The notes under the pieces are model-generated. The model did not search any database. It saw nothing but the letters and a program-made list of their open reading frames with translations, and was not told the DNA's origin. Shown here in pieces: positions 31,837 to 52,633 of a stretch of 64,000 nucleotides of DNA. The position numbers and the translations under genes were made by a program. The stretch comes from Escherichia coli (lineage in GTDB: Bacteria; Pseudomonadota; Gammaproteobacteria; Enterobacterales; Enterobacteriaceae). Every line of letters begins with the position of its first letter. The first letter of the stretch is position 1. Location of the stretch: assembly GCF_016026235.1 (NCBI RefSeq), contig NZ_CP065613.1. One strand, 5' to 3'.

Positions 31837-32367
31837 TTACTGAAGAGATTTACCCTCCTCAAAAATCTTCACAAAATTCCTGCGAGTAACTTCAATGCAA
31901 TAATCGTAAAACGCCGCAAACTGCTCATCGCGGCGTTTTTTTTCATCTTCAGAAGGAATCAGCACCGACAATTTTTTCTCCAGTTTTTCAATGGGCGATT
32001 CAATATCATCTTTTTCTGACCGCAATGCCGTCGGTGGCGTCTTCAGAGAACCAGTAATTCTTCCCGGTAGCTTTCCTTTGTAGGTTATCCACACATTCTG
32101 CGCCTCTAAAATTATGGGGCGCTTTTCCGGCGACTGCTCATCCCCTTCACATAACCCGGCAGCAACATCCAGGAATACCTGTCTGATTCTCATTCTGGCC
32201 GCTGCCTCATAAAACTCCAGCGCGGCACCTTCAACACGGTCCAGCGAGATGTCCAGGTCAAAAATTTCACCGTCAAAGCGTTTTTTGTCCCGTAACGCTA
32301 AAGTTACCGCAACTTTATTCTCAAAATTGCGGATCCCTTTCACAATCAGTTCATAGTTTTGTGTCAT
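31837..32367 (-). CDS. hypothetical protein inserted between holin and endolysin
   Basis: 176 aa; GGGGAG RBS about 9 nt upstream; starts 5 nt after holin stop. Confidence 0.6.
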   Translation of the reverse strand: MTQNYELIVKGIRNFENKVAVTLALRDKKRFDGEIFDLDISLDRVEGAALEFYEAAARMRIRQVFLDVAAGLCEGDEQSPEKRPIILEAQNVWITYKGKLPGRITGSLKTPPTALRSEKDDIESPIEKLEKKLSVLIPSEDEKKRRDEQFAAFYDYCIEVTRRNFVKIFEEGKSLQ

Positions 32368-32371
32368 TGAA

Positions 32372-32587
32372 TTACTCTCCCCGCGCAGCCTTACGCTTGT
32401 CTTCTCTTATTTTGAAATACAGGTTAGTCAGATATGTCAGCAGCCCAAACAGCAGACTCCCCAGCACGCCTATTGCCGCCCACTGAGACGGGGAAACCCT
32501 GTCCAGCAACTGCAGGAACCAGTAGCCCGTTCCCACCGCTGACGTGGTGTATGACACACCTGTTGTGATTTTTTCCATCTGGTCCAT
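32372..32587 (-). CDS. class II holin (phage 21 S-like pinholin), dual start MDQM
   Basis: [63 protein letters not shown] matches recalled S21. Confidence 0.85.
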
Positions 32588-32894: not shown

Positions 32895-33083
32895 TCACTC
32901 CGGCTCAGTTGCACCACTGACCACCACATCACCTTCTGCTGCAATCGCCTGCATCAGGGTATAAGGGGTTATGGCCACCGGACTACCAAACGGCTGCCAG
33001 CCCTCTTTCAGTTTATGTGTCAGCTTTTCCGCAAGATCTGACGGCGGCGCCGCCCTGACAACATCATAGTGTTTAAATGCCAT
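32895..33083 (-). CDS. small phage protein (DUF1737-like)
   Basis: 62 aa from MAFKHYDVV; upstream of holin. Confidence 0.5.
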   Translation of the reverse strand: MAFKHYDVVRAAPPSDLAEKLTHKLKEGWQPFGSPVAITPYTLMQAIAAEGDVVVSGATEPE

Positions 33084-33343
33084 GGTTCTTTCCACCATCT
33101 AAAAAATAATTCTTTAAAATACCTGACATGTAATACAGAAAAAGCACAAAACCATACATTAAATAAAAACCTGATTATCAAGCAGATATGCATGGATAAA
33201 CTACAAGACGAGATATAAACCACCCTGCATTTAAATAAACAATAAACAACATCAGAAAAATAATTCTGCTCTATGGTTTACATTCAAAAATATCATTTAT
33301 ACTTTTCAGAACATCACCAGCAAGACATAAACAAGGAAACTAA

Positions 33344-33679
33344 ATGAAGTGGATTGTGATTGATACAGTTATCCAGCCATCATGCGGAATATCTTTTTCA
33401 GTCATATGGAGTAAAATAAAATTAATAATCTGGTATCAATCGGATGCTTTCTTACCTCCTGAAAGTATATTTACACTGACTCACACAGGCATCATGCTCA
33501 ATAACAAAGTGCTACCTGTAACCATTTACAACGTAGTACCATTCAATAAAACATTCTGGAATTTAATCAAAAACAGCCAGGAATGCCCTACAAATACAGA
33601 TAACGTATTGAATGAATGCTTTAATAACCGTTGCACTCTGCAAATATGTCCTTATGGACTAAAACAACAAAGTCCATAA
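33344..33679 (+). CDS. hypothetical Cys-rich protein in AT-rich island
   Basis: 111 aa; AAGGAAA RBS; opposite strand to late operon; 3' end inside a hairpin. Confidence 0.4.
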
Positions 33680-34054
33680 GGAGTTTACTCACATCTGACA
33701 AAATCAATATAAACAGCCCCTCCGGAGAGGGGCTGGAGAGTGGCGCTATGTGCCATTGCATGGTGCCGGGTGCCTCCCGGTGAATTCAGTACCAGCACCT
33801 GAATCCGCGATTATCCCATATACCTACTCGCTGATTGCCCCTCCGCACAGGGGGATTCACCATGCCAGTTTCTTTTAACAAACTCCCCGCAAACCAGACA
33901 ACAGTCAACCGCCTGAATTGTGAAGTATTTAAAAATTTCTCCCGCTAACTGATACCCGGCTAACAGTCTGGCGTTTTCTTTTTCAGCAACGGGAAAGCAA
34001 CAACCCTGTTATCGTGTCGTCTGCTCTTCCTGATAAGCTAATGGCGGTTTGTGA

Positions 34055-34130
34055 TGGTGGCCCTTGCTGGATTTGAACCAGCGACCTGGCGATTATGAGT
34101 CGCTCGCTCTCACCACTGAGCTAAAGGGCC
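34055..34130 (-). tRNA. tRNA with CAU anticodon (Ile2-type or Met)
   Basis: 76-nt cloverleaf: acceptor GGCCCTT/AAGGGCC, T-loop TTCAAAT, encoded CCA; close to recalled E. coli ileX. Confidence 0.85.
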
Positions 34131-34273
34131 GGGAGCAGAATAATAACGGTCCGTAATTAATTCCGCAATAAAAAACCCGCTCGGCGGCGGGTTGTAGAAA
34201 CTCTTCTAACGTCAGGCATAAAACGCCCATAGTTATGACGAATTTACCACAGATTCCGGAAAAATCAACCTTG

Positions 34274-35095
34274 TTACCTAGTTACCTTTTTTAACTGCCG
34301 CTCAGCCCATGCTTCTTCAATATCAAACCGGGTCACCAGCGCATCATAGAATTTCTTAACTGTTTTTTCCCATGACGCGCGTGTTATCTGGTTTGTCACC
34401 TCGCATATAGCATTAAATGCCTCCGTTGATGGTAGTCTTTCATAGCCACGACCACCACAACGCTGGCAGTCTCTGATAACAGGCATACCACGTTTTACCG
34501 ACTCTTCACGATGAATGGCGACACCACGCCCACGGCAATCCTTACAGGCGGTGGAAACCTCACCCTTTCCGCCACACTCCGGACAGGCAACTTTTACCAC
34601 CTCCCTGACTTTTTTCCATTCTTCCCAGTAAGACGGATACACACCTTTCGTACACTTTGCCCATACCGGCGGCTTACCATCCGGATACTGGACCTTGTTT
34701 GTAAAAACTACGCTTTCAATAAATTTTTCCCCATAGCAACAAGGGCACTGCTTTTTACTCGCTGCGCTGCGGGCATAATCCTCAAAAGCGTACGAAGCCA
34801 TAATGCGCATCACTACCGGTTTTATTTCTGCCGGAAGTTTTCTCAACGCCGCCACACGATCGCACCGACTGAGTGCATAATCAGCCAGTAATTCTGTTGC
34901 CCGCGCCCTGTCATTCATACTGATGCCCATTTTCCCCAGGAACGCAGAAAACCCCATCTCAGCCCGATTCTGTGTCATGCCCTGCGCGGCCATCACATCA
35001 GTGATACTCAGCGCATCTTTTGACGTTGAGGCCGATGCATCGGTCAGGCAAGGGGATTTTGGGGAGTAGTATTTCGGTAAATCTTCCAGTTTCAT
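34274..35095 (-). CDS. late antiterminator Q-like protein
   Basis: 273 aa with Cys clusters CPCCYG and CPECGGKG; followed by tRNA and lysis genes. Confidence 0.8.
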   Translation of the reverse strand: MKLEDLPKYYSPKSPCLTDASASTSKDALSITDVMAAQGMTQNRAEMGFSAFLGKMGISMNDRARATELLADYALSRCDRVAALRKLPAEIKPVVMRIMASYAFEDYARSAASKKQCPCCYGEKFIESVVFTNKVQYPDGKPPVWAKCTKGVYPSYWEEWKKVREVVKVACPECGGKGEVSTACKDCRGRGVAIHREESVKRGMPVIRDCQRCGGRGYERLPSTEAFNAICEVTNQITRASWEKTVKKFYDALVTRFDIEEAWAERQLKKVTR

Positions 35096-35466: not shown

Positions 35467-35723
35467 CAGCGCAGCACCTCCTGCACCAGTTTTTCAAACT
35501 TTCCGACTCTGGTTTCCAGCTCTGCCACACAGTCCACCAGCTCATCTACTGCTTTCTGTGCGCGATGCTTCGCCTGCATCAGTTCCCGAAGCGCGGGTAC
35601 CATATCTTTACGGATAGCATCTTTTGTTATGCCCGTTTTTTCGAGTTGTTCAGCATGACGCAGCATTTCCTGCGCGTGTTTACGCAATTGTTCAGGGGTA
35701 AAAGTCATTGTCTGGTTGTTCAA
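35466..35723 (-). CDS. hypothetical coiled-coil protein
   Basis: 85 aa between helicase and rusA. Confidence 0.5.
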   Translation of the reverse strand: MNNQTMTFTPEQLRKHAQEMLRHAEQLEKTGITKDAIRKDMVPALRELMQAKHRAQKAVDELVDCVAELETRVGKFEKLVQEVLR

Positions 35724-36753
35724 AAGAAACGCTCCATCTTACTGCTGTCAGTTCGTTTATTACTGTATCTGCGCGGATTGCCGGGCTTCATGGGAGTGGA
35801 AAGCACCCGTGCACTTTCCTGGTCCACAGGCAGAAAATGTCCGTTATAAAAACGCCGGTAAATCGTTCCCAGAGAACCGTTACGTTGTTTCGTGATATTG
35901 ATTTCTGCGATGCCCCTGGCCTGCGTATCCGGGTTGTACACTTCATCCCTGTAAAGCATCAGAATGATGTCTGCATCCGCCTCTATTTCTCCGGAATTTT
36001 TCAGGTCTGAGTTCATGGGACGTTTATTGGGTCTGGACTCCACACCGCGGGAGAGCTGGCTCAGCGCAATCAACGGAAAACCACCGGATTTTGCCAGGCC
36101 TTTAAGCCCCTTTGAGATTTCACCCACGGCAAGGTCATGACGCCCCGTGGTTCGGGTTTTTATCAGCCCGAGATAATCAACCACCACCAGCGCCGTTTCC
36201 GGATGTTTAATCAGATGGTGTTTCGTTGTTGCGCATATCTCATCAATGGTCAGGTTCGCCTGGTCCACCATCCAGATATTGCGCCCGGTCATCCGCCCCA
36301 CCCCTTGTGAGAAACGCGCCCAGTCTTCATCTTCAAAGTGAGCCACAGATTTCAGGCGTGATACTGGCATCCCTCCAGCCGCAGACACCATACGTTCACC
36401 AATCTGGATGTTCGCCATCTCCATGGTGAACAGAAGCACACCATGCCCCTGCTCAGTCACCTTGTCGATGATGTCCAGCGCAAGTTCGGTTTTCCCCATC
36501 GAAGGACGAGCCGCAATAAATACCAGGTCGCCGGGCTCCATGCCGCCTGTTTTTGCGTCCAGTTCATCAATACCGGTCATCAACGTCCTGGATTTCTCCA
36601 GTCCCTGATTCCGGCATTCAACACGCTCAACCACCTCCGGAAGCACATCATCAATATGTACCGACTGAATAACGCCCTTTTCCGTCGACAATGAGGCCAT
36701 CATGTTCTGTGCATCCTTAAGAGCATCTTCAGCTGCTTCACAGGTATGCGCAT
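35720..36753 (-). pseudogene. DnaB-like replicative helicase, C-terminal part (split by IS600)
   Basis: Walker A AARPSMGKTELAL; first 16 residues of ORF come from the IS600 end. Confidence 0.8.
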
Positions 36754-36817
36754 TGAGGTAGCCTGAGTTTAACGGACACTCCTTCCTGAAATAGAATGGC
36801 ATCAGAAGGAGCTAATA

Positions 36818-37155: not shown

Positions 37156-37974
37156 ATGTGTCAGGTATTTGGTGTATCCAGGAGCGGTTATTACAACTGG
37201 GTACAGCATGAACCCTCAGACAGAAAACAAAGTGATGAGCGGCTAAAACTGGAGATTAAGGTGGCACATATCCGCACTCGCGAAACATATGGAACCCGGC
37301 GGCTCCAGACGGAGCTGGCAGAGAATGGCATCATCGTTGGTCGTGACCGACTGGCACGTCTTCGTAAGGAGCTAAGGCTACGCTGTAAGCAGAAACGCAA
37401 GTTCAGAGCGACTACGAACCCGAACCACAATCTGCCAGTTGCGCCAAATCTGCTGAACCAGACGTTCGCTCCTACAGCACCAAATCAGGTCTGGGTGGCG
37501 GACCTGACGTATGTTGCCACACAGGAGGGATGGTTGTACCTCGCTGGCATCAAAGATGTTTATACGTGCGAAATTGTCGGCTACGCCATGGGAGAGCGCA
37601 TGACAAAAGAGCTGACAGGTAAAGCCCTGTTTATGGCGCTCAGGAGCCAGCGCCCACCTGCCGGGCTAATCCACCACTCTGATCGAGGTTCACAGTACTG
37701 CGCATACGATTACCGGGTCATACAGGAGCAGTCTGGTCTGAAAACATCAATGTCGCGTAAAGGTAACTGTTACGACAACGCTCCGATGGAAAGCTTCTGG
37801 GGAACGCTGAAAAATGAGAGCCTGAGCCACTATCGTTTTAATAACCGGGATGAAGCCATCTCAGTAATACGGGAATACATTGAGATTTTCTACAATCGTC
37901 AGCGTCGTCACTCTCGTCTGGGGAATATCTCCCCGGCAGCCTTCAGGGAAAAATATCATCAGATGGCTGCTTAA
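37156..37974 (+). CDS. IS600 OrfB (DDE transposase; made as OrfAB by -1 frameshift)
   Basis: 272-aa ORF; A-run AAAAAAAG near orfA 3' end. Confidence 0.9.
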   Translation: MCQVFGVSRSGYYNWVQHEPSDRKQSDERLKLEIKVAHIRTRETYGTRRLQTELAENGIIVGRDRLARLRKELRLRCKQKRKFRATTNPNHNLPVAPNLLNQTFAPTAPNQVWVADLTYVATQEGWLYLAGIKDVYTCEIVGYAMGERMTKELTGKALFMALRSQRPPAGLIHHSDRGSQYCAYDYRVIQEQSGLKTSMSRKGNCYDNAPMESFWGTLKNESLSHYRFNNRDEAISVIREYIEIFYNRQRRHSRLGNISPAAFREKYHQMAA

Positions 37975-40952: not shown

Positions 40953-41264
40953 GATGGCAGCCTCTTTGGTGATTTTTAATAACTCACCACCAAAGCTTCT
41001 CACGGCAATAGGTGGTGAGACGTACAGGGGTGAGAAACCGGTCACCAAAGAACCCGGCCCAACCGAAGTTGGCCCTGCACGCCCCACCATAATTTGGGCG
41101 TAATGCTGCTCATGACACAAAAAAACCGCAAGAGCGCGGTTGTGCGCTTTGGTGAATTCCGGGTTCTCACGCCCGGCACCCGCTTTATAAGGTGCGGAGA
41201 CAGTGTAACGTCCCGAAATTGCAGAATCAATATCAAAATGTTGTAGCTGTGGACAACGCGAAGC

Positions 41265-48222: not shown

Positions 48223-49041
48223 ATGTGTCAGGTATTTGGTGTATCCAGGAGCGGTTATTACAACTGGGTACAGCATGAACCCTCAGACAGAAAACAAAGT
48301 GATGAGCGGCTAAAACTGGAGATTAAGGTGGCACATATCCGCACTCGCGAAACATATGGAACCCGGCGGCTCCAGACGGAGCTGGCAGAGAATGGCATCA
48401 TCGTTGGTCGTGACCGACTGGCACGTCTTCGTAAGGAGCTAAGGCTACGCTGTAAGCAGAAACGCAAGTTCAGAGCGACTACGAACCCGAACCACAATCT
48501 GCCAGTTGCGCCAAATCTGCTGAACCAGACGTTCGCTCCTACAGCACCAAATCAGGTCTGGGTGGCGGACCTGACGTATGTTGCCACACAGGAGGGATGG
48601 TTGTACCTCGCTGGCATCAAAGATGTTTATACGTGCGAAATTGTCGGCTACGCCATGGGAGAGCGCATGACAAAAGAGCTGACAGGTAAAGCCCTGTTTA
48701 TGGCGCTCAGGAGCCAGCGCCCACCTGCCGGGCTAATCCACCACTCTGATCGAGGTTCACAGTACTGCGCATACGATTACCGGGTCATACAGGAGCAGTC
48801 TGGTCTGAAAACATCAATGTCGCGTAAAGGTAACTGTTACGACAACGCTCCGATGGAAAGCTTCTGGGGAACGCTGAAAAATGAGAGCCTGAGCCACTAT
48901 CGTTTTAATAACCGGGATGAAGCCATCTCAGTAATACGGGAATACATTGAGATTTTCTACAATCGTCAGCGTCGTCACTCTCGTCTGGGGAATATCTCCC
49001 CGGCAGCCTTCAGGGAAAAATATCATCAGATGGCTGCTTAA
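48223..49041 (+). CDS. IS600 OrfB
   Basis: Identical to copy 1. Confidence 0.9.
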   Translation: MCQVFGVSRSGYYNWVQHEPSDRKQSDERLKLEIKVAHIRTRETYGTRRLQTELAENGIIVGRDRLARLRKELRLRCKQKRKFRATTNPNHNLPVAPNLLNQTFAPTAPNQVWVADLTYVATQEGWLYLAGIKDVYTCEIVGYAMGERMTKELTGKALFMALRSQRPPAGLIHHSDRGSQYCAYDYRVIQEQSGLKTSMSRKGNCYDNAPMESFWGTLKNESLSHYRFNNRDEAISVIREYIEIFYNRQRRHSRLGNISPAAFREKYHQMAA

Positions 49042-50252: not shown

Positions 50253-51425
50253 ATGGATAAAGTCAAATATCCAACAGGCGTCGAAAACCACGGTGGCACA
50301 TTACGCATCTGGTTTAATTTTAAAGGTAAACGTGTCAGGGAAAATCTTGGTGTCCCTGACACTGCCAAGAACAGGAAGATCGCCGGAGAGCTGCGGACAT
50401 CTGTATGTTTTGCCATTCGTACAGGAAATTTTGATTATGCTGCGCAGTTCCCTGACTCTCCTAACCTCAAGGCTTTTGGGGTAAATAAAAAAGAAATTAC
50501 GGTGAAAGAACTTGAAGAAAAATGGCTGGATCTGAAACGAATGGAAATCTCTGCAAATGCATTCAATCGCTATGAATCCATTGCAAGGATGATGGTTCCG
50601 AAGATTGGTGGCAACCGACTGGTATCAGCAGTGACCAAAGAGGAATTGCTGTATATCAGGAAAGATTTGCTGACCGGATACCAAAATCCAACAAAAGGTA
50701 AAGCTCCAGTAAAAGGACGAAGCGTTGTCACAGTAAATTATTACATGACAACAATCGCTGGAATGTTTCAGTTTGCTGCAGATCACGGTTACATAGAAGC
50801 AAATCCCTTCGAGGGAATTAAGCCTCTTAAAAGAGCCAGGGCAGAACCAGATCCGCTAACTCGTGACGAATTTATTCGCCTGATAGATGCTTGCCGGCAT
50901 CAGCAGACAAAAAACCTGTGGTCATTGGCTGTGTACACAGGAATGCGTCATGGTGAACTGGTCTCCCTGGCCTGGGAAGATATCGATCTGAAAGCAGGAA
51001 CAATTACTATCAGGCGCAATTATACGAAACTCGGTGAGTTCACTCTACCTAAAACTGAAGCAAGTACAAACAGGGTTGTGCATCTTATCCAGCCCGCTAT
51101 CAGTGTCCTGAAAAATCAGGCTGAAATGACAAGACTGGGTAAGCAGCACAACATCAAGGTTCAACTACGTGAATATGGACGTTCAGTAAATCATGAATGT
51201 ACTTTCGTATTTAACCCCCAGGTGGTTAGAAAAAGCAAACAGGTAGGTTTTATCTACAAGGTAGATTCCATTGGCGACTCATGGGAAACAGCCATTAAAC
51301 GTGCAGGCATCAGGCATCGAAAGGCATACCAGTCACGACACACTTATGCGTGCTGGTCATTATCTGCCGGAGCAAATCCAAGCTTCATTGCCAGCCAGAT
51401 GGGGCATGCAAGTGAGGTAGCCTGA
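50253..51425 (+). pseudogene. int: tyrosine integrase, 3' end interrupted by IS600
   Basis: GGAGG RBS; catalytic region through HTYACWSLSAGANPSFIASQMGH then IS600 from 51413. Confidence 0.85.
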
Positions 51426-51814: not shown

Positions 51815-52633
51815 ATGTGTCAGGTATTTGGTGTATCCAGGAGCGGTTATTACAACTGGGTACAGCATGAACCCTCAGACAGAAAACAAAGTGATGAGCG
51901 GCTAAAACTGGAGATTAAGGTGGCACATATCCGCACTCGCGAAACATATGGAACCCGGCGGCTCCAGACGGAGCTGGCAGAGAATGGCATCATCGTTGGT
52001 CGTGACCGACTGGCACGTCTTCGTAAGGAGCTAAGGCTACGCTGTAAGCAGAAACGCAAGTTCAGAGCGACTACGAACCCGAACCACAATCTGCCAGTTG
52101 CGCCAAATCTGCTGAACCAGACGTTCGCTCCTACAGCACCAAATCAGGTCTGGGTGGCGGACCTGACGTATGTTGCCACACAGGAGGGATGGTTGTACCT
52201 CGCTGGCATCAAAGATGTTTATACGTGCGAAATTGTCGGCTACGCCATGGGAGAGCGCATGACAAAAGAGCTGACAGGTAAAGCCCTGTTTATGGCGCTC
52301 AGGAGCCAGCGCCCACCTGCCGGGCTAATCCACCACTCTGATCGAGGTTCACAGTACTGCGCATACGATTACCGGGTCATACAGGAGCAGTTTGGTCTGA
52401 AAACATCAATGTCGCGTAAAGGTAACTGTTACGACAACGCTCCGATGGAAAGCTTCTGGGGAACGCTGAAAAATGAGAGCCTGAGCCACTATCGTTTTAA
52501 TAACCGGGATGAAGCCATCTCAGTAATACGGGAATACATTGAGATTTTCTACAATCGTCAGCGTCGTCACTCTCGTCTGGGGAATATCTCCCCGGCAGCC
52601 TTCAGGGAAAAATATCATCAGATGGCTGCTTAA
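51815..52633 (+). CDS. IS600 OrfB
   Basis: One substitution (F for S) versus other copies. Confidence 0.9.
   Translation: MCQVFGVSRSGYYNWVQHEPSDRKQSDERLKLEIKVAHIRTRETYGTRRLQTELAENGIIVGRDRLARLRKELRLRCKQKRKFRATTNPNHNLPVAPNLLNQTFAPTAPNQVWVADLTYVATQEGWLYLAGIKDVYTCEIVGYAMGERMTKELTGKALFMALRSQRPPAGLIHHSDRGSQYCAYDYRVIQEQFGLKTSMSRKGNCYDNAPMESFWGTLKNESLSHYRFNNRDEAISVIREYIEIFYNRQRRHSRLGNISPAAFREKYHQMAA

What the first reader, a model, noticed from the sequence alone, without database searches (positions are those of the whole stretch)
33100..33700. AT-rich island with a Cys-rich plus-strand ORF between Q/tRNA and the lysis genes
The segment is visibly more AT-rich than the surrounding phage DNA. It encodes a 111-aa protein on the strand opposite the late operon, in the slot where lambdoid phages carry toxin or conversion cargo downstream of Q and tRNA genes. 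Its stop lies inside a perfect hairpin (TCCTTATGGAC/GTCCATAAGGA), and a second palindrome CAGCCCCTCTCCGGAGGGGCTG follows at about 33717-33738.
Basis: seen in the sequence. Interest (0 to 1): 0.45.

Follow-up and report, generated by a model that had tools for sequence, protein, structure and literature searches.

The report
Prophage copy of the iraL gene
The AT-rich island carries iraL, an already characterised prophage cargo gene whose small protein blocks RssB and so protects the stress sigma factor RpoS from degradation; the finding is real but ordinary.

Summary
Window 33100-33700 is the lowest-GC 601-bp stretch of the 64-kb window (GC 0.32 against a mean of 0.51). It carries a 111-aa ORF (33344-33679, +) opposite the late operon.

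The ORF is not an unknown. Its protein and coding DNA are 100% identical to IraL of E. coli CFT073, and it is 62% identical to K-12 IraM. It passes the NCBIfam IraM model and matches the solved IraM-RssB structure 8TWD. IraL is a published RssB anti-adaptor that stabilises RpoS in log phase (PMC4045071). The promoter region upstream of the mapped transcription start is identical here.

The gene sits in the Q-to-lysis cargo slot. Relatives lie directly next to stx2 in Stx2 phages. About a quarter of complete E. coli genomes carry the locus.

The hairpin over the stop codon is real (12 bp) but specific to this allele. It has no U-tract, so it is probably not a terminator. The second palindrome is the terminator of the convergent sRNA STnc100.

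One detail seems not to have been discussed before. Four C-terminal cysteines are near-invariant across the whole enterobacterial family, and that tail is missing from the crystal structure.

Verdict: already known, low interest.

The parts
33075..33700 (.). AT-rich island (GC about 0.22-0.44 in 50-bp steps) holding the iraL promoter region and coding sequence.
   Evidence: it is the lowest-GC 601-bp stretch of the window. Upstream regions of most homologues are also AT-rich (GC 0.27-0.34; E. albertii 0.44).
33277..33303 (+). iraL promoter. The -10 hexamer TATACT is at 33298-33303. A candidate -35 hexamer, TTTACA, is at 33277-33282 with a 15-bp spacer; this -35 assignment is inferred.
   Evidence: The sequence from about 33160 to 33309 is identical to CFT073. 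In CFT073 the start site was mapped by 5' RACE and a sigma-70 promoter was proposed (PMC4045071). The tool's strict promoter scan did not list it.
33311..33343 (+). iraL 5' untranslated leader (33 nt), with the transcription start at 33311 and a Shine-Dalgarno sequence AAGGA at 33333-33337.
   Evidence: The published mRNA 5' end ACATCACCAGCAAGGCATAAACAAGGAAACCA matches 33311-33342 with 2 mismatches.
33344..33679 (+). iraL coding sequence: 111 aa, an RssB anti-adaptor of the IraM/IraL/RssC family.
   Evidence: 100% identical to CFT073 IraL, WP_000871291.1. NCBIfam NF007393 scores 162 bits against a cut-off of 121. PDB 8TWD IraM matches at E 9e-32. dN/dS is 0.12-0.29.
33649..33682 (+). Perfect 12-bp hairpin spanning the last codons and the stop codon of iraL.
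   Evidence: It is not conserved in the alleles with 89% and 76% protein identity (-4.8 and -7.0 kcal/mol against -17.5 here) and is absent from the 107-aa alleles. No U-tract follows it.
33705..33894 (-). STnc100 small RNA, convergent with iraL.
   Evidence: Rfam RF02076 scores 132.4 bits against a gathering score of 47. The terminator scan found it. The same convergent pairing occurs in six other loci.
34055..34130 (-). tRNA with a CAT anticodon. ARAGORN calls it Met; the identical gene is annotated tRNA-Ile in E. coli 042.
34274..35095 (-). Late antiterminator Q (273 aa). It is followed by a candidate late promoter (TTGATT, 16 nt, TAAATT at about 34268-34241) and a terminator at 34193-34174.
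   Evidence: PHROG 127 and PHROG 25523, 'anti-termination protein Q-like'. RefSeq annotates the homologues as 'antitermination protein'. Terminator. The promoter was read from the sequence and is inferred.
32895..33098 (-). DUF1737-type small protein, the first late-operon gene after the island. The holin follows at 32372-32587.
   Evidence: RefSeq annotation of the matching DNA. PHROG 2036 for the small protein and PHROG 9876/20 (holin) for the next gene.

Best explanation
The island is a prophage cargo gene, iraL, with its own promoter, inserted on the opposite strand between the Q/tRNA/STnc100 region and the lysis cassette of a lambdoid prophage.

In the lysogen a sigma-70 promoter (-10 at 33298-33303, start at 33311) drives a 33-nt leader and the 111-aa IraL protein. 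IraL binds the adaptor RssB. RssB can then no longer hand RpoS (sigma-S) to the ClpXP protease. RpoS is therefore stabilised during exponential growth and the general stress response is raised.

Shown elsewhere for the identical protein: the transcription start, RssB binding, and the halved RpoS half-life in a deletion mutant.

Shown here: sequence identity to that protein, an intact promoter region, the position of the gene, conservation under purifying selection, and the base composition.

Inferred: that the gene is expressed and acts the same way in this host. Also inferred: that the AT-rich DNA makes it a target of H-NS silencing, as reported for K-12 iraM, and that Q-dependent late transcription runs antisense across the gene after induction.
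For: - The protein and coding DNA are 100% identical to CFT073 IraL. The 960-bp locus is about 99% identical, including the promoter.
- The published 5' RACE sequence maps to 33311-33342.
- NCBIfam's IraM model scores above its curated cut-off.
- PDB 8TWD, the IraM-RssB complex, matches residues 1-78 at E 9e-32.
- Of 15 IraM residues that contact RssB, 11 are identical and 4 are conservative changes: T13S, L75I, H63N, I64V (PMC10844676).
- dN/dS is 0.12-0.29 against five alleles.
- The gene is in the same slot in CFT073, E. coli 042, phage vB_EcoS-640R1, Stx2c phage 1717, stx2 loci and E. albertii.
- 1430 of 5426 complete E. coli genomes hold at least 80% of 33050-33800.
- Function is taken from PMC4045071. 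iraL mRNA rises 1.6 log2 on a shift to 37 C in CFT073 (PMC12890032).
Against: - Nothing here measures expression or RpoS in this particular host.
- The prophage carries three IS3-family copies and a truncated DnaB, so the host background may differ from CFT073.
- Three substitutions lie at -1, +16 and +32 relative to the mapped start. Their effect is unknown.
- No convincing terminator for iraL was found on the + strand.
- The local Pfam scan gave no hit, although precomputed tables list PF11183 (PmrD) for all homologues.
Confidence: 0.9

Rival explanations
1. The ORF encodes a secreted, cysteine-rich toxin or virulence effector, as its position in the stx slot might suggest.
For: It is in the same slot as stx2, and its relatives lie adjacent to stx2B. 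It has five cysteines.
Against: It is identical to a cytoplasmic RssB-binding protein. The hydrophobic N-terminus corresponds to beta-strands of the solved IraM domain, not to a signal peptide (PMC10844676). It has no match in the defence library and matches no other NCBIfam model.
Confidence: 0.02
2. The gene is present but silent or non-functional in this host. It would be a remnant in a decaying, IS-riddled prophage, kept off by H-NS binding to the AT-rich DNA.
For: There are three IS3-family insertions and a truncated helicase in the same prophage. The upstream region has GC 0.28. H-NS regulation of K-12 iraM is reported (Battesti 2012, cited in PMC4428439; not read here).
Against: The ORF is intact and identical to the active allele, and the promoter hexamers are identical to CFT073. 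In CFT073 the gene is active in log phase (PMC4045071).
Confidence: 0.1
3. The functional element is RNA rather than protein. The 12-bp hairpin over the stop codon would act as a terminator or regulatory structure, or the iraL transcript would act mainly as an antisense partner of STnc100 or the late transcript.
For: The stem is strong (-17.5 kcal/mol; the 3' region has z = -5.9). iraL and STnc100 converge only 26 nt apart, in seven loci.
Against: The hairpin collapses in the two closest alleles without compensating changes, and it is absent from the 107-aa alleles. No U-tract follows it. The coding sequence is under purifying selection along its whole length.
Confidence: 0.05

Closest known systems
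IraL of uropathogenic E. coli CFT073 (gene c1429, WP_000871291.1; Hryckowian et al. 2014, PMC4045071)
   Same: Identical protein and coding DNA. Identical -10 and candidate -35 hexamers. The same prophage slot (Q, tRNA, STnc100, then iraL on the opposite strand, then DUF1737 and holin).
   Different: Three substitutions around the start site and leader. Here one tRNA lies upstream, where CFT073 has an IS200 and three tRNAs. The prophage is different and lies at a different chromosomal site: near cmoB/torYZ/cutC here, at potB in CFT073.
IraM (YcgW) of E. coli K-12, the Mg-starvation anti-adaptor; solved structure 8TWD
   Same: 62% identical protein with the same length class. RssB-contact residues are conserved. 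The four C-terminal cysteines and the ICPYG motif are shared. The coding sequence is also AT-rich, GC 0.34.
   Different: The promoter regions do not align beyond about 20 nt upstream of the ATG, so PhoP control cannot be carried over. IraM lies beside the e14 attachment site, not in a late operon. IraL has a 4-residue extension (QQSP) because a TAA in iraM is a CAA here. [quoted passage not shown]
IraM-like genes of Stx2-converting phages (for example phage 1717, ACI43140.1, annotated as a conserved hypothetical protein)
   Same: Same family (75% protein identity), same opposite-strand orientation, same convergent STnc100, same downstream nanS-p/DUF1737 and holin.
   Different: There the gene lies immediately after stx2B. 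It is a 107-aa allele without the stop-codon hairpin, and it is often unannotated in phage records.
PmrD, the polymyxin-resistance connector protein
   Same: The N-terminal domain of IraM has the PmrD fold (PMC10844676). Precomputed Pfam hits file the family under PF11183.
   Different: According to the structure paper, PmrD acts on a different response regulator. No PmrD chain appeared in the sequence searches against solved structures. The local Pfam scan did not match.

Membership tests
IraM/IraL/RssC RssB anti-adaptors | Whole-protein match to the curated family model above its cut-off. | tested here: met
   NF007393 scores 162 bits against a cut-off of 121, covering residues 1-110.
IraM/IraL/RssC RssB anti-adaptors | Identity to an experimentally characterised member. 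| tested here: met
   100% identical to CFT073 IraL and 62% identical to K-12 IraM. The coding DNA is identical to CFT073.
IraM/IraL/RssC RssB anti-adaptors | Conservation of the residues that contact RssB in structure 8TWD (clusters I-III and Pro66). | tested here: met
   11 of 15 are identical. The other four are T13S, L75I, H63N and I64V (residue list from PMC10844676).
IraM/IraL/RssC RssB anti-adaptors | PmrD-like beta-barrel N-terminal domain. | tested here: inconclusive
   The sequence matches the solved chain over residues 1-78 at E 9e-32, which implies the same fold. The AlphaFold model from 13 sequences has low confidence (pLDDT 54.7), though it gives seven strands followed by one helix.
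IraM/IraL/RssC RssB anti-adaptors | Binds RssB and slows ClpXP degradation of RpoS. | not testable with these tools
   Shown for the identical protein in CFT073 (RpoS half-life about 5 min against about 2.5 min in the deletion mutant; two-hybrid assay with RssB; PMC4045071). The same paper reports lower log-phase RpoS in a Shigella sonnei iraL mutant, whose allele was not compared here.
IraM/IraL/RssC RssB anti-adaptors | The host has rssB, rpoS and clpXP. | not tested
   These genes lie outside the window. The flanking chromosomal genes (cmoB, MicL/cutC) indicate Escherichia or Shigella.
Lambdoid prophage cargo gene (moron, lysogenic conversion) | Lies between Q and the lysis cassette and is oriented independently of the late operon. 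| tested here: met
   Q is at 34274-35095 (-), the holin at 32372-32587 (-), and iraL is on the + strand. The same slot is used in seven other loci.
Lambdoid prophage cargo gene (moron, lysogenic conversion) | Has its own promoter that is active in the lysogen. | tested here: met
   The promoter sequence is identical to the CFT073 promoter whose start was mapped by 5' RACE. Activity in this strain was not measured.
Lambdoid prophage cargo gene (moron, lysogenic conversion) | Has its own terminator. | tested here: inconclusive
   No + strand terminator-like site lies after 33679. The stop-codon hairpin has no U-tract. The STnc100 terminator has its U-tract only on the - strand.
Lambdoid prophage cargo gene (moron, lysogenic conversion) | Base composition differs from the surrounding phage DNA. 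| tested here: met
   GC 0.32 against 0.51, the lowest of the window.
Intrinsic terminator (for the stop-codon hairpin) | G+C-rich stem followed by a U-tract, conserved among alleles. | tested here: not met
   The stem has 5 G-C pairs of 12. It is followed by GTTTACTCAC and was not listed by the scan. It is degraded or absent in other alleles.
STnc100 sRNA (for the second palindrome) | Rfam RF02076 match above the gathering score, ending in a terminator. | tested here: met
   132.4 bits against 47, with the full model 1-206 matched. The terminator at 33735-33714 is followed by TTTATATT.
PhoP-controlled iraM promoter (K-12 type) | Upstream region homologous to the K-12 iraM promoter. | tested here: not met
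   The alignment is good only from about 20 nt before the ATG onward. Further upstream the sequences do not align convincingly.

The most novel reading that the evidence does not exclude
The four C-terminal cysteines (C81, C92, C97, C102; motif CPxN-x7-C-x4-C-x4-CPYG) may form a metal-binding or redox-sensitive module that controls the stability or activity of IraL and IraM.

They are invariant in 13 Escherichia members. Each is present in 79-92% of 48 relatives as low as 21% identical, from Salmonella, Citrobacter, Enterobacter, Kosakonia, Klebsiella/Raoultella and Pantoea. Most exceptions look truncated or frameshifted.

This tail was removed for the crystal structure because it is proteolytically unstable, and the structure paper called it less conserved and flexible.

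A second, independent possibility is that Q-driven late transcription, which must cross iraL in antisense, switches the anti-adaptor off on prophage induction.
Probability: 0.2. Interest if true: 0.4.

Novelty: already known. Interest (0 to 1): 0.1.

Why it matters
It matters little as a discovery. iraL was named and characterised in 2014, and NCBI annotates this locus as IraM in more than a thousand complete E. coli genomes.

It is still a useful worked example of a prophage cargo gene that rewires a core host regulator. A phage-borne gene in the same slot as Shiga toxin raises RpoS in growing cells.

Two points could be worth a small follow-up:
- The strongly conserved four-cysteine tail has no assigned role. 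No mention of cysteine or zinc was found in the two IraM papers searched for these words.
- The fixed convergent pairing with the STnc100 sRNA, and the antisense relation to the late operon, have not been studied as far as was found here.

The phage protein family resource PHROGs still lists this family (phrog_4407) as of unknown function. Many Stx2 phage records leave the gene unannotated. Annotation could therefore be improved.

Tried and rejected
- Local Pfam scan of the protein: no hit even at E 10. The precomputed tables give PF11183 (PmrD) for all homologues, so this is probably a difference in library version. It was not counted as evidence against membership.
- AlphaFold from the 13-sequence alignment: low confidence (pLDDT 54.7; the tail below 50). 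It says nothing about the cysteine tail, and no fold search was run on it.
- Profile of the tail against PDB sequences: nothing significant. The best hit is E 1.7, to the CCCH zinc finger of MEX-5, sharing only 'CPYG'. This is a lead, not evidence.
- Stop-codon hairpin as a conserved RNA element: rejected, because the two closest alleles lose it without compensating changes.
- Carrying over PhoP/Mg control from K-12 iraM: rejected, because the promoters do not align.
- Anti-phage defence function: no PADLOC match.
- Toxin reading: rejected on homology.
- The strict sigma-70 scan did not list the experimentally supported iraL promoter, because the best -35 candidate has a 15-bp spacer.
- Finding the exact source genome: no complete E. 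coli genome covers more than 68% of 22000-46000. This was not pursued.
- The Battesti 2012 paper on H-NS control of iraM could not be read. That point rests on its citation only.

Full report
**1. Observation**

The segment 33100-33700 has GC 0.319. The mean of all 601-bp stretches of the window is 0.506 (sd 0.049). This segment is the minimum of the whole 64-kb window (profile). In 50-bp steps the low-GC block runs from about 33075 to 33700, with sharp edges at the start of the DUF1737 gene and at the STnc100 terminator.

The ORF at 33344-33679 (+) encodes 111 aa. Every neighbouring phage gene is on the - strand. The protein has five cysteines, four of them in the last 31 residues.

The stop codon lies in the right arm of a perfect 12-bp inverted repeat (33649-33660 and 33671-33682). 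This is the second-longest perfect short-range inverted repeat in the window.

All parts of the observation are confirmed, with these small coordinate corrections.

**2. What the ORF is**

A DNA search of complete E. coli genomes found the 751-bp locus at 95% identity or more in most matching records. RefSeq annotates the ORF as 'anti-adapter protein IraM'. In all, 1430 of 5426 genomes hold at least 80% of the query.

The protein scores 162 bits on NCBIfam NF007393, whose cut-off is 121. It matches the IraM chain of the solved IraM-RssB complex 8TWD at E 9e-32 over residues 1-78.

I fetched the CFT073 potB prophage and the K-12 iraM locus. The window protein is 100% identical to the CFT073 protein and 62% identical to K-12 IraM. 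The coding DNA is identical to CFT073, and the 960-bp locus is about 99% identical.

The CFT073 gene is iraL. Hryckowian et al. 2014 (PMC4045071) made four points:
- IraL interacts with RssB.
- Deleting iraL halves the RpoS half-life in log phase (about 5 min to about 2.5 min).
- The gene is common in uropathogenic E. coli and Shigella.
- The mRNA starts with ACATCACCAGCAAGGCATAAACAAGGAAACCA.

That sequence maps to window 33311-33342 with two mismatches. A -10 hexamer, TATACT, lies at 33298-33303. Everything from about 33160 to 33309 is identical to CFT073.

The residues of IraM that contact RssB in the crystal structure are identical at 11 of 15 positions and conservatively changed at the other four (PMC10844676).

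**3. Conservation**

Against five alleles, from 89% to 62% protein identity, dN/dS is 0.12-0.29. The values are similar in the N-terminal domain and in the tail. The ORF is therefore a real, selected coding sequence.

**4. Context**

The order on the - strand is as follows:
- RusA and Q (34274-35095)
- a candidate late promoter and a short terminator (34193-34174)
- a tRNA (34055-34130)
- STnc100 (33894-33705) with its terminator
- iraL, on the opposite strand
- DUF1737 and the holin (32372-32587)
- a 176-aa protein of unknown function
- lysozyme and Rz

The same arrangement holds in CFT073, E. coli 042 and the sequenced phage vB_EcoS-640R1. Relatives with 75-76% protein identity sit in Stx2 phages and stx2 loci, directly after stx2B and before nanS-p. 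An E. albertii relative lies between Q and nanS-p.

The cargo is a regulator of the host stress response rather than a toxin.

**5. The two hairpins**

The stop-codon hairpin is strong here (-17.5 kcal/mol). In the alleles with 89% and 76% protein identity, a synonymous TAT-to-TAC change and changes in the right arm are not compensated, and the stem falls to -4.8 and -7.0 kcal/mol. The 107-aa alleles stop earlier and lack the right arm altogether. No U-tract follows the stem. I therefore do not regard it as a conserved terminator or regulatory element. It may still protect the 3' end of the mRNA in this allele.

The second palindrome is the intrinsic terminator of STnc100 (Rfam, 132 bits). STnc100 converges on iraL 26 nt away. 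This pairing recurs in window, CFT073, 042, 640R1, phage 1717, L006 and L009. In E. albertii a different hairpin occupies the position.

STnc100 is a known prophage sRNA found downstream of stx2 (PMC12370729; bioRxiv 10.64898/2026.05.13.724894).

**6. Mechanism, and what is inferred**

Three things are shown elsewhere for the identical protein: RssB binding, RpoS stabilisation in log phase, and the transcription start.

Five things are shown here: identity, an intact promoter region, the gene's position, purifying selection, and base composition.

Four things are inferred:
- The gene is expressed in this host.
- The AT-rich DNA is silenced by H-NS. This is reported for K-12 iraM, but I know it only through a citation.
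- Q-modified polymerase reading through the STnc100 terminator would transcribe iraL in antisense during lytic growth.
- Control by PhoP cannot be assumed, because the iraL and iraM promoters do not align.

**7. The one point that goes beyond the papers I read**

A profile search of 1.84 billion representative proteins found 98 relatives at E 0.001 or better, and 50 at E 1e-10 or better. Those that carry names come from Salmonella, Citrobacter, Enterobacter, Intestinirhabdus, Kosakonia, Pantoea and Klebsiella/Raoultella.

In 48 near-full-length members, at 21-43% identity to IraL, the four tail cysteines are among the most conserved columns:
- C81: 92%
- C92: 79%
- C97: 83%
- C102: 83%
- P103: 85%

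Most exceptions look truncated or frameshifted. In 38 of the 48, all four cysteines are present. In a sample of 21 of these, Trp72, the four cysteines and the two prolines of the motif W-x8-CPxN-x7-C-x4-C-x4-CPYG are invariant.

The crystal structure used residues 1-78 because the tail is proteolytically unstable, and the paper described the tail as less conserved and flexible (PMC10844676). No cysteine or zinc role is mentioned there or in PMC4428439.

I could not obtain a confident model or a significant match to a solved structure. A metal or redox role is therefore only a hypothesis.

**8. Verdict**

The finding is real and correctly placed, but it is a known, named and experimentally characterised gene. 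Novelty: already known. Interest: low.

Noticed in passing
window 33705-33894 (-); also L004 5449-5660, L006 3373-3582, L009 2481-2693, L001 6656-6845, L005 5604-5792: The STnc100 sRNA lies convergent with the iraL/iraM-like gene, roughly 10-40 nt beyond its stop, in seven loci. In Stx2c phage 1717 it starts about 75 nt after stx2cB. The two genes look like a linked module.
   Followed up: partly
window 34055-34130 (-): ARAGORN calls this tRNA Met(CAT). It is identical in sequence to the gene RefSeq annotates as tRNA-Ile in E. coli 042, so it may be an AUA-reading tRNA-Ile. iraL uses the rare ATA codon for 6 of its 13 isoleucines.
   Followed up: partly
window 79-107 of the IraL protein (33578-33664): Four cysteines and the CPYG motif in the C-terminal tail are near-invariant across about 40 enterobacterial family clusters. 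This tail is absent from the crystal structure 8TWD and has no assigned role.
   Followed up: partly
window 37156-37974, 48223-49041, 51815-52633 (+): There are three copies of a 272-aa IS3-family transposase ORF, each preceded by the same 12-bp hairpin (37082, 48149, 51741). The DnaB-like helicase gene (35720-36802) looks truncated next to the first copy. The prophage is IS-riddled and probably defective.
   Followed up: partly
window 41008-41195 (-): A C4 antisense RNA (83 bits) and an isrK Hfq-binding RNA (64 bits) lie side by side, inside or next to a 620-aa ORF with a Rha domain. This is the immunity or antirepressor control region of the prophage.
   Followed up: no
window 31837-32367 (-): A 176-aa ORF lies between the holin and the lysozyme. 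It has no NCBIfam or PADLOC match and only unknown-function PHROG families (phrog_2091). CFT073 and 042 have a YdfR-family gene at this position instead.
   Followed up: no
window 34168-34273 (-): Directly after Q there is a candidate late promoter (TTGATT, 16 nt, TAAATT) followed by a short terminator (34193-34174). This would give a transcript of about 50-60 nt, analogous to the short late-promoter (pR') RNA of lambdoid phages. It also gave a weak sub-threshold Trp_leader match.
   Followed up: no
window 54814-63165: This is chromosomal flank: cmoB, a torZ/torY-sized pair of ORFs, MicL sRNA within cutC (370 bits), the ES036 sRNA, and an ORF of argS size. The integrase at 50253-51425 marks the prophage end near cmoA/cmoB.
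   Followed up: no
IraL protein (window 33344-33676): The databases disagree. The local Pfam scan finds nothing, while precomputed tables give PF11183 (PmrD) for all homologues. PHROGs lists the family (phrog_4407) as unknown function. Many Stx2 phage GenBank records leave the gene unannotated.
   Followed up: partly
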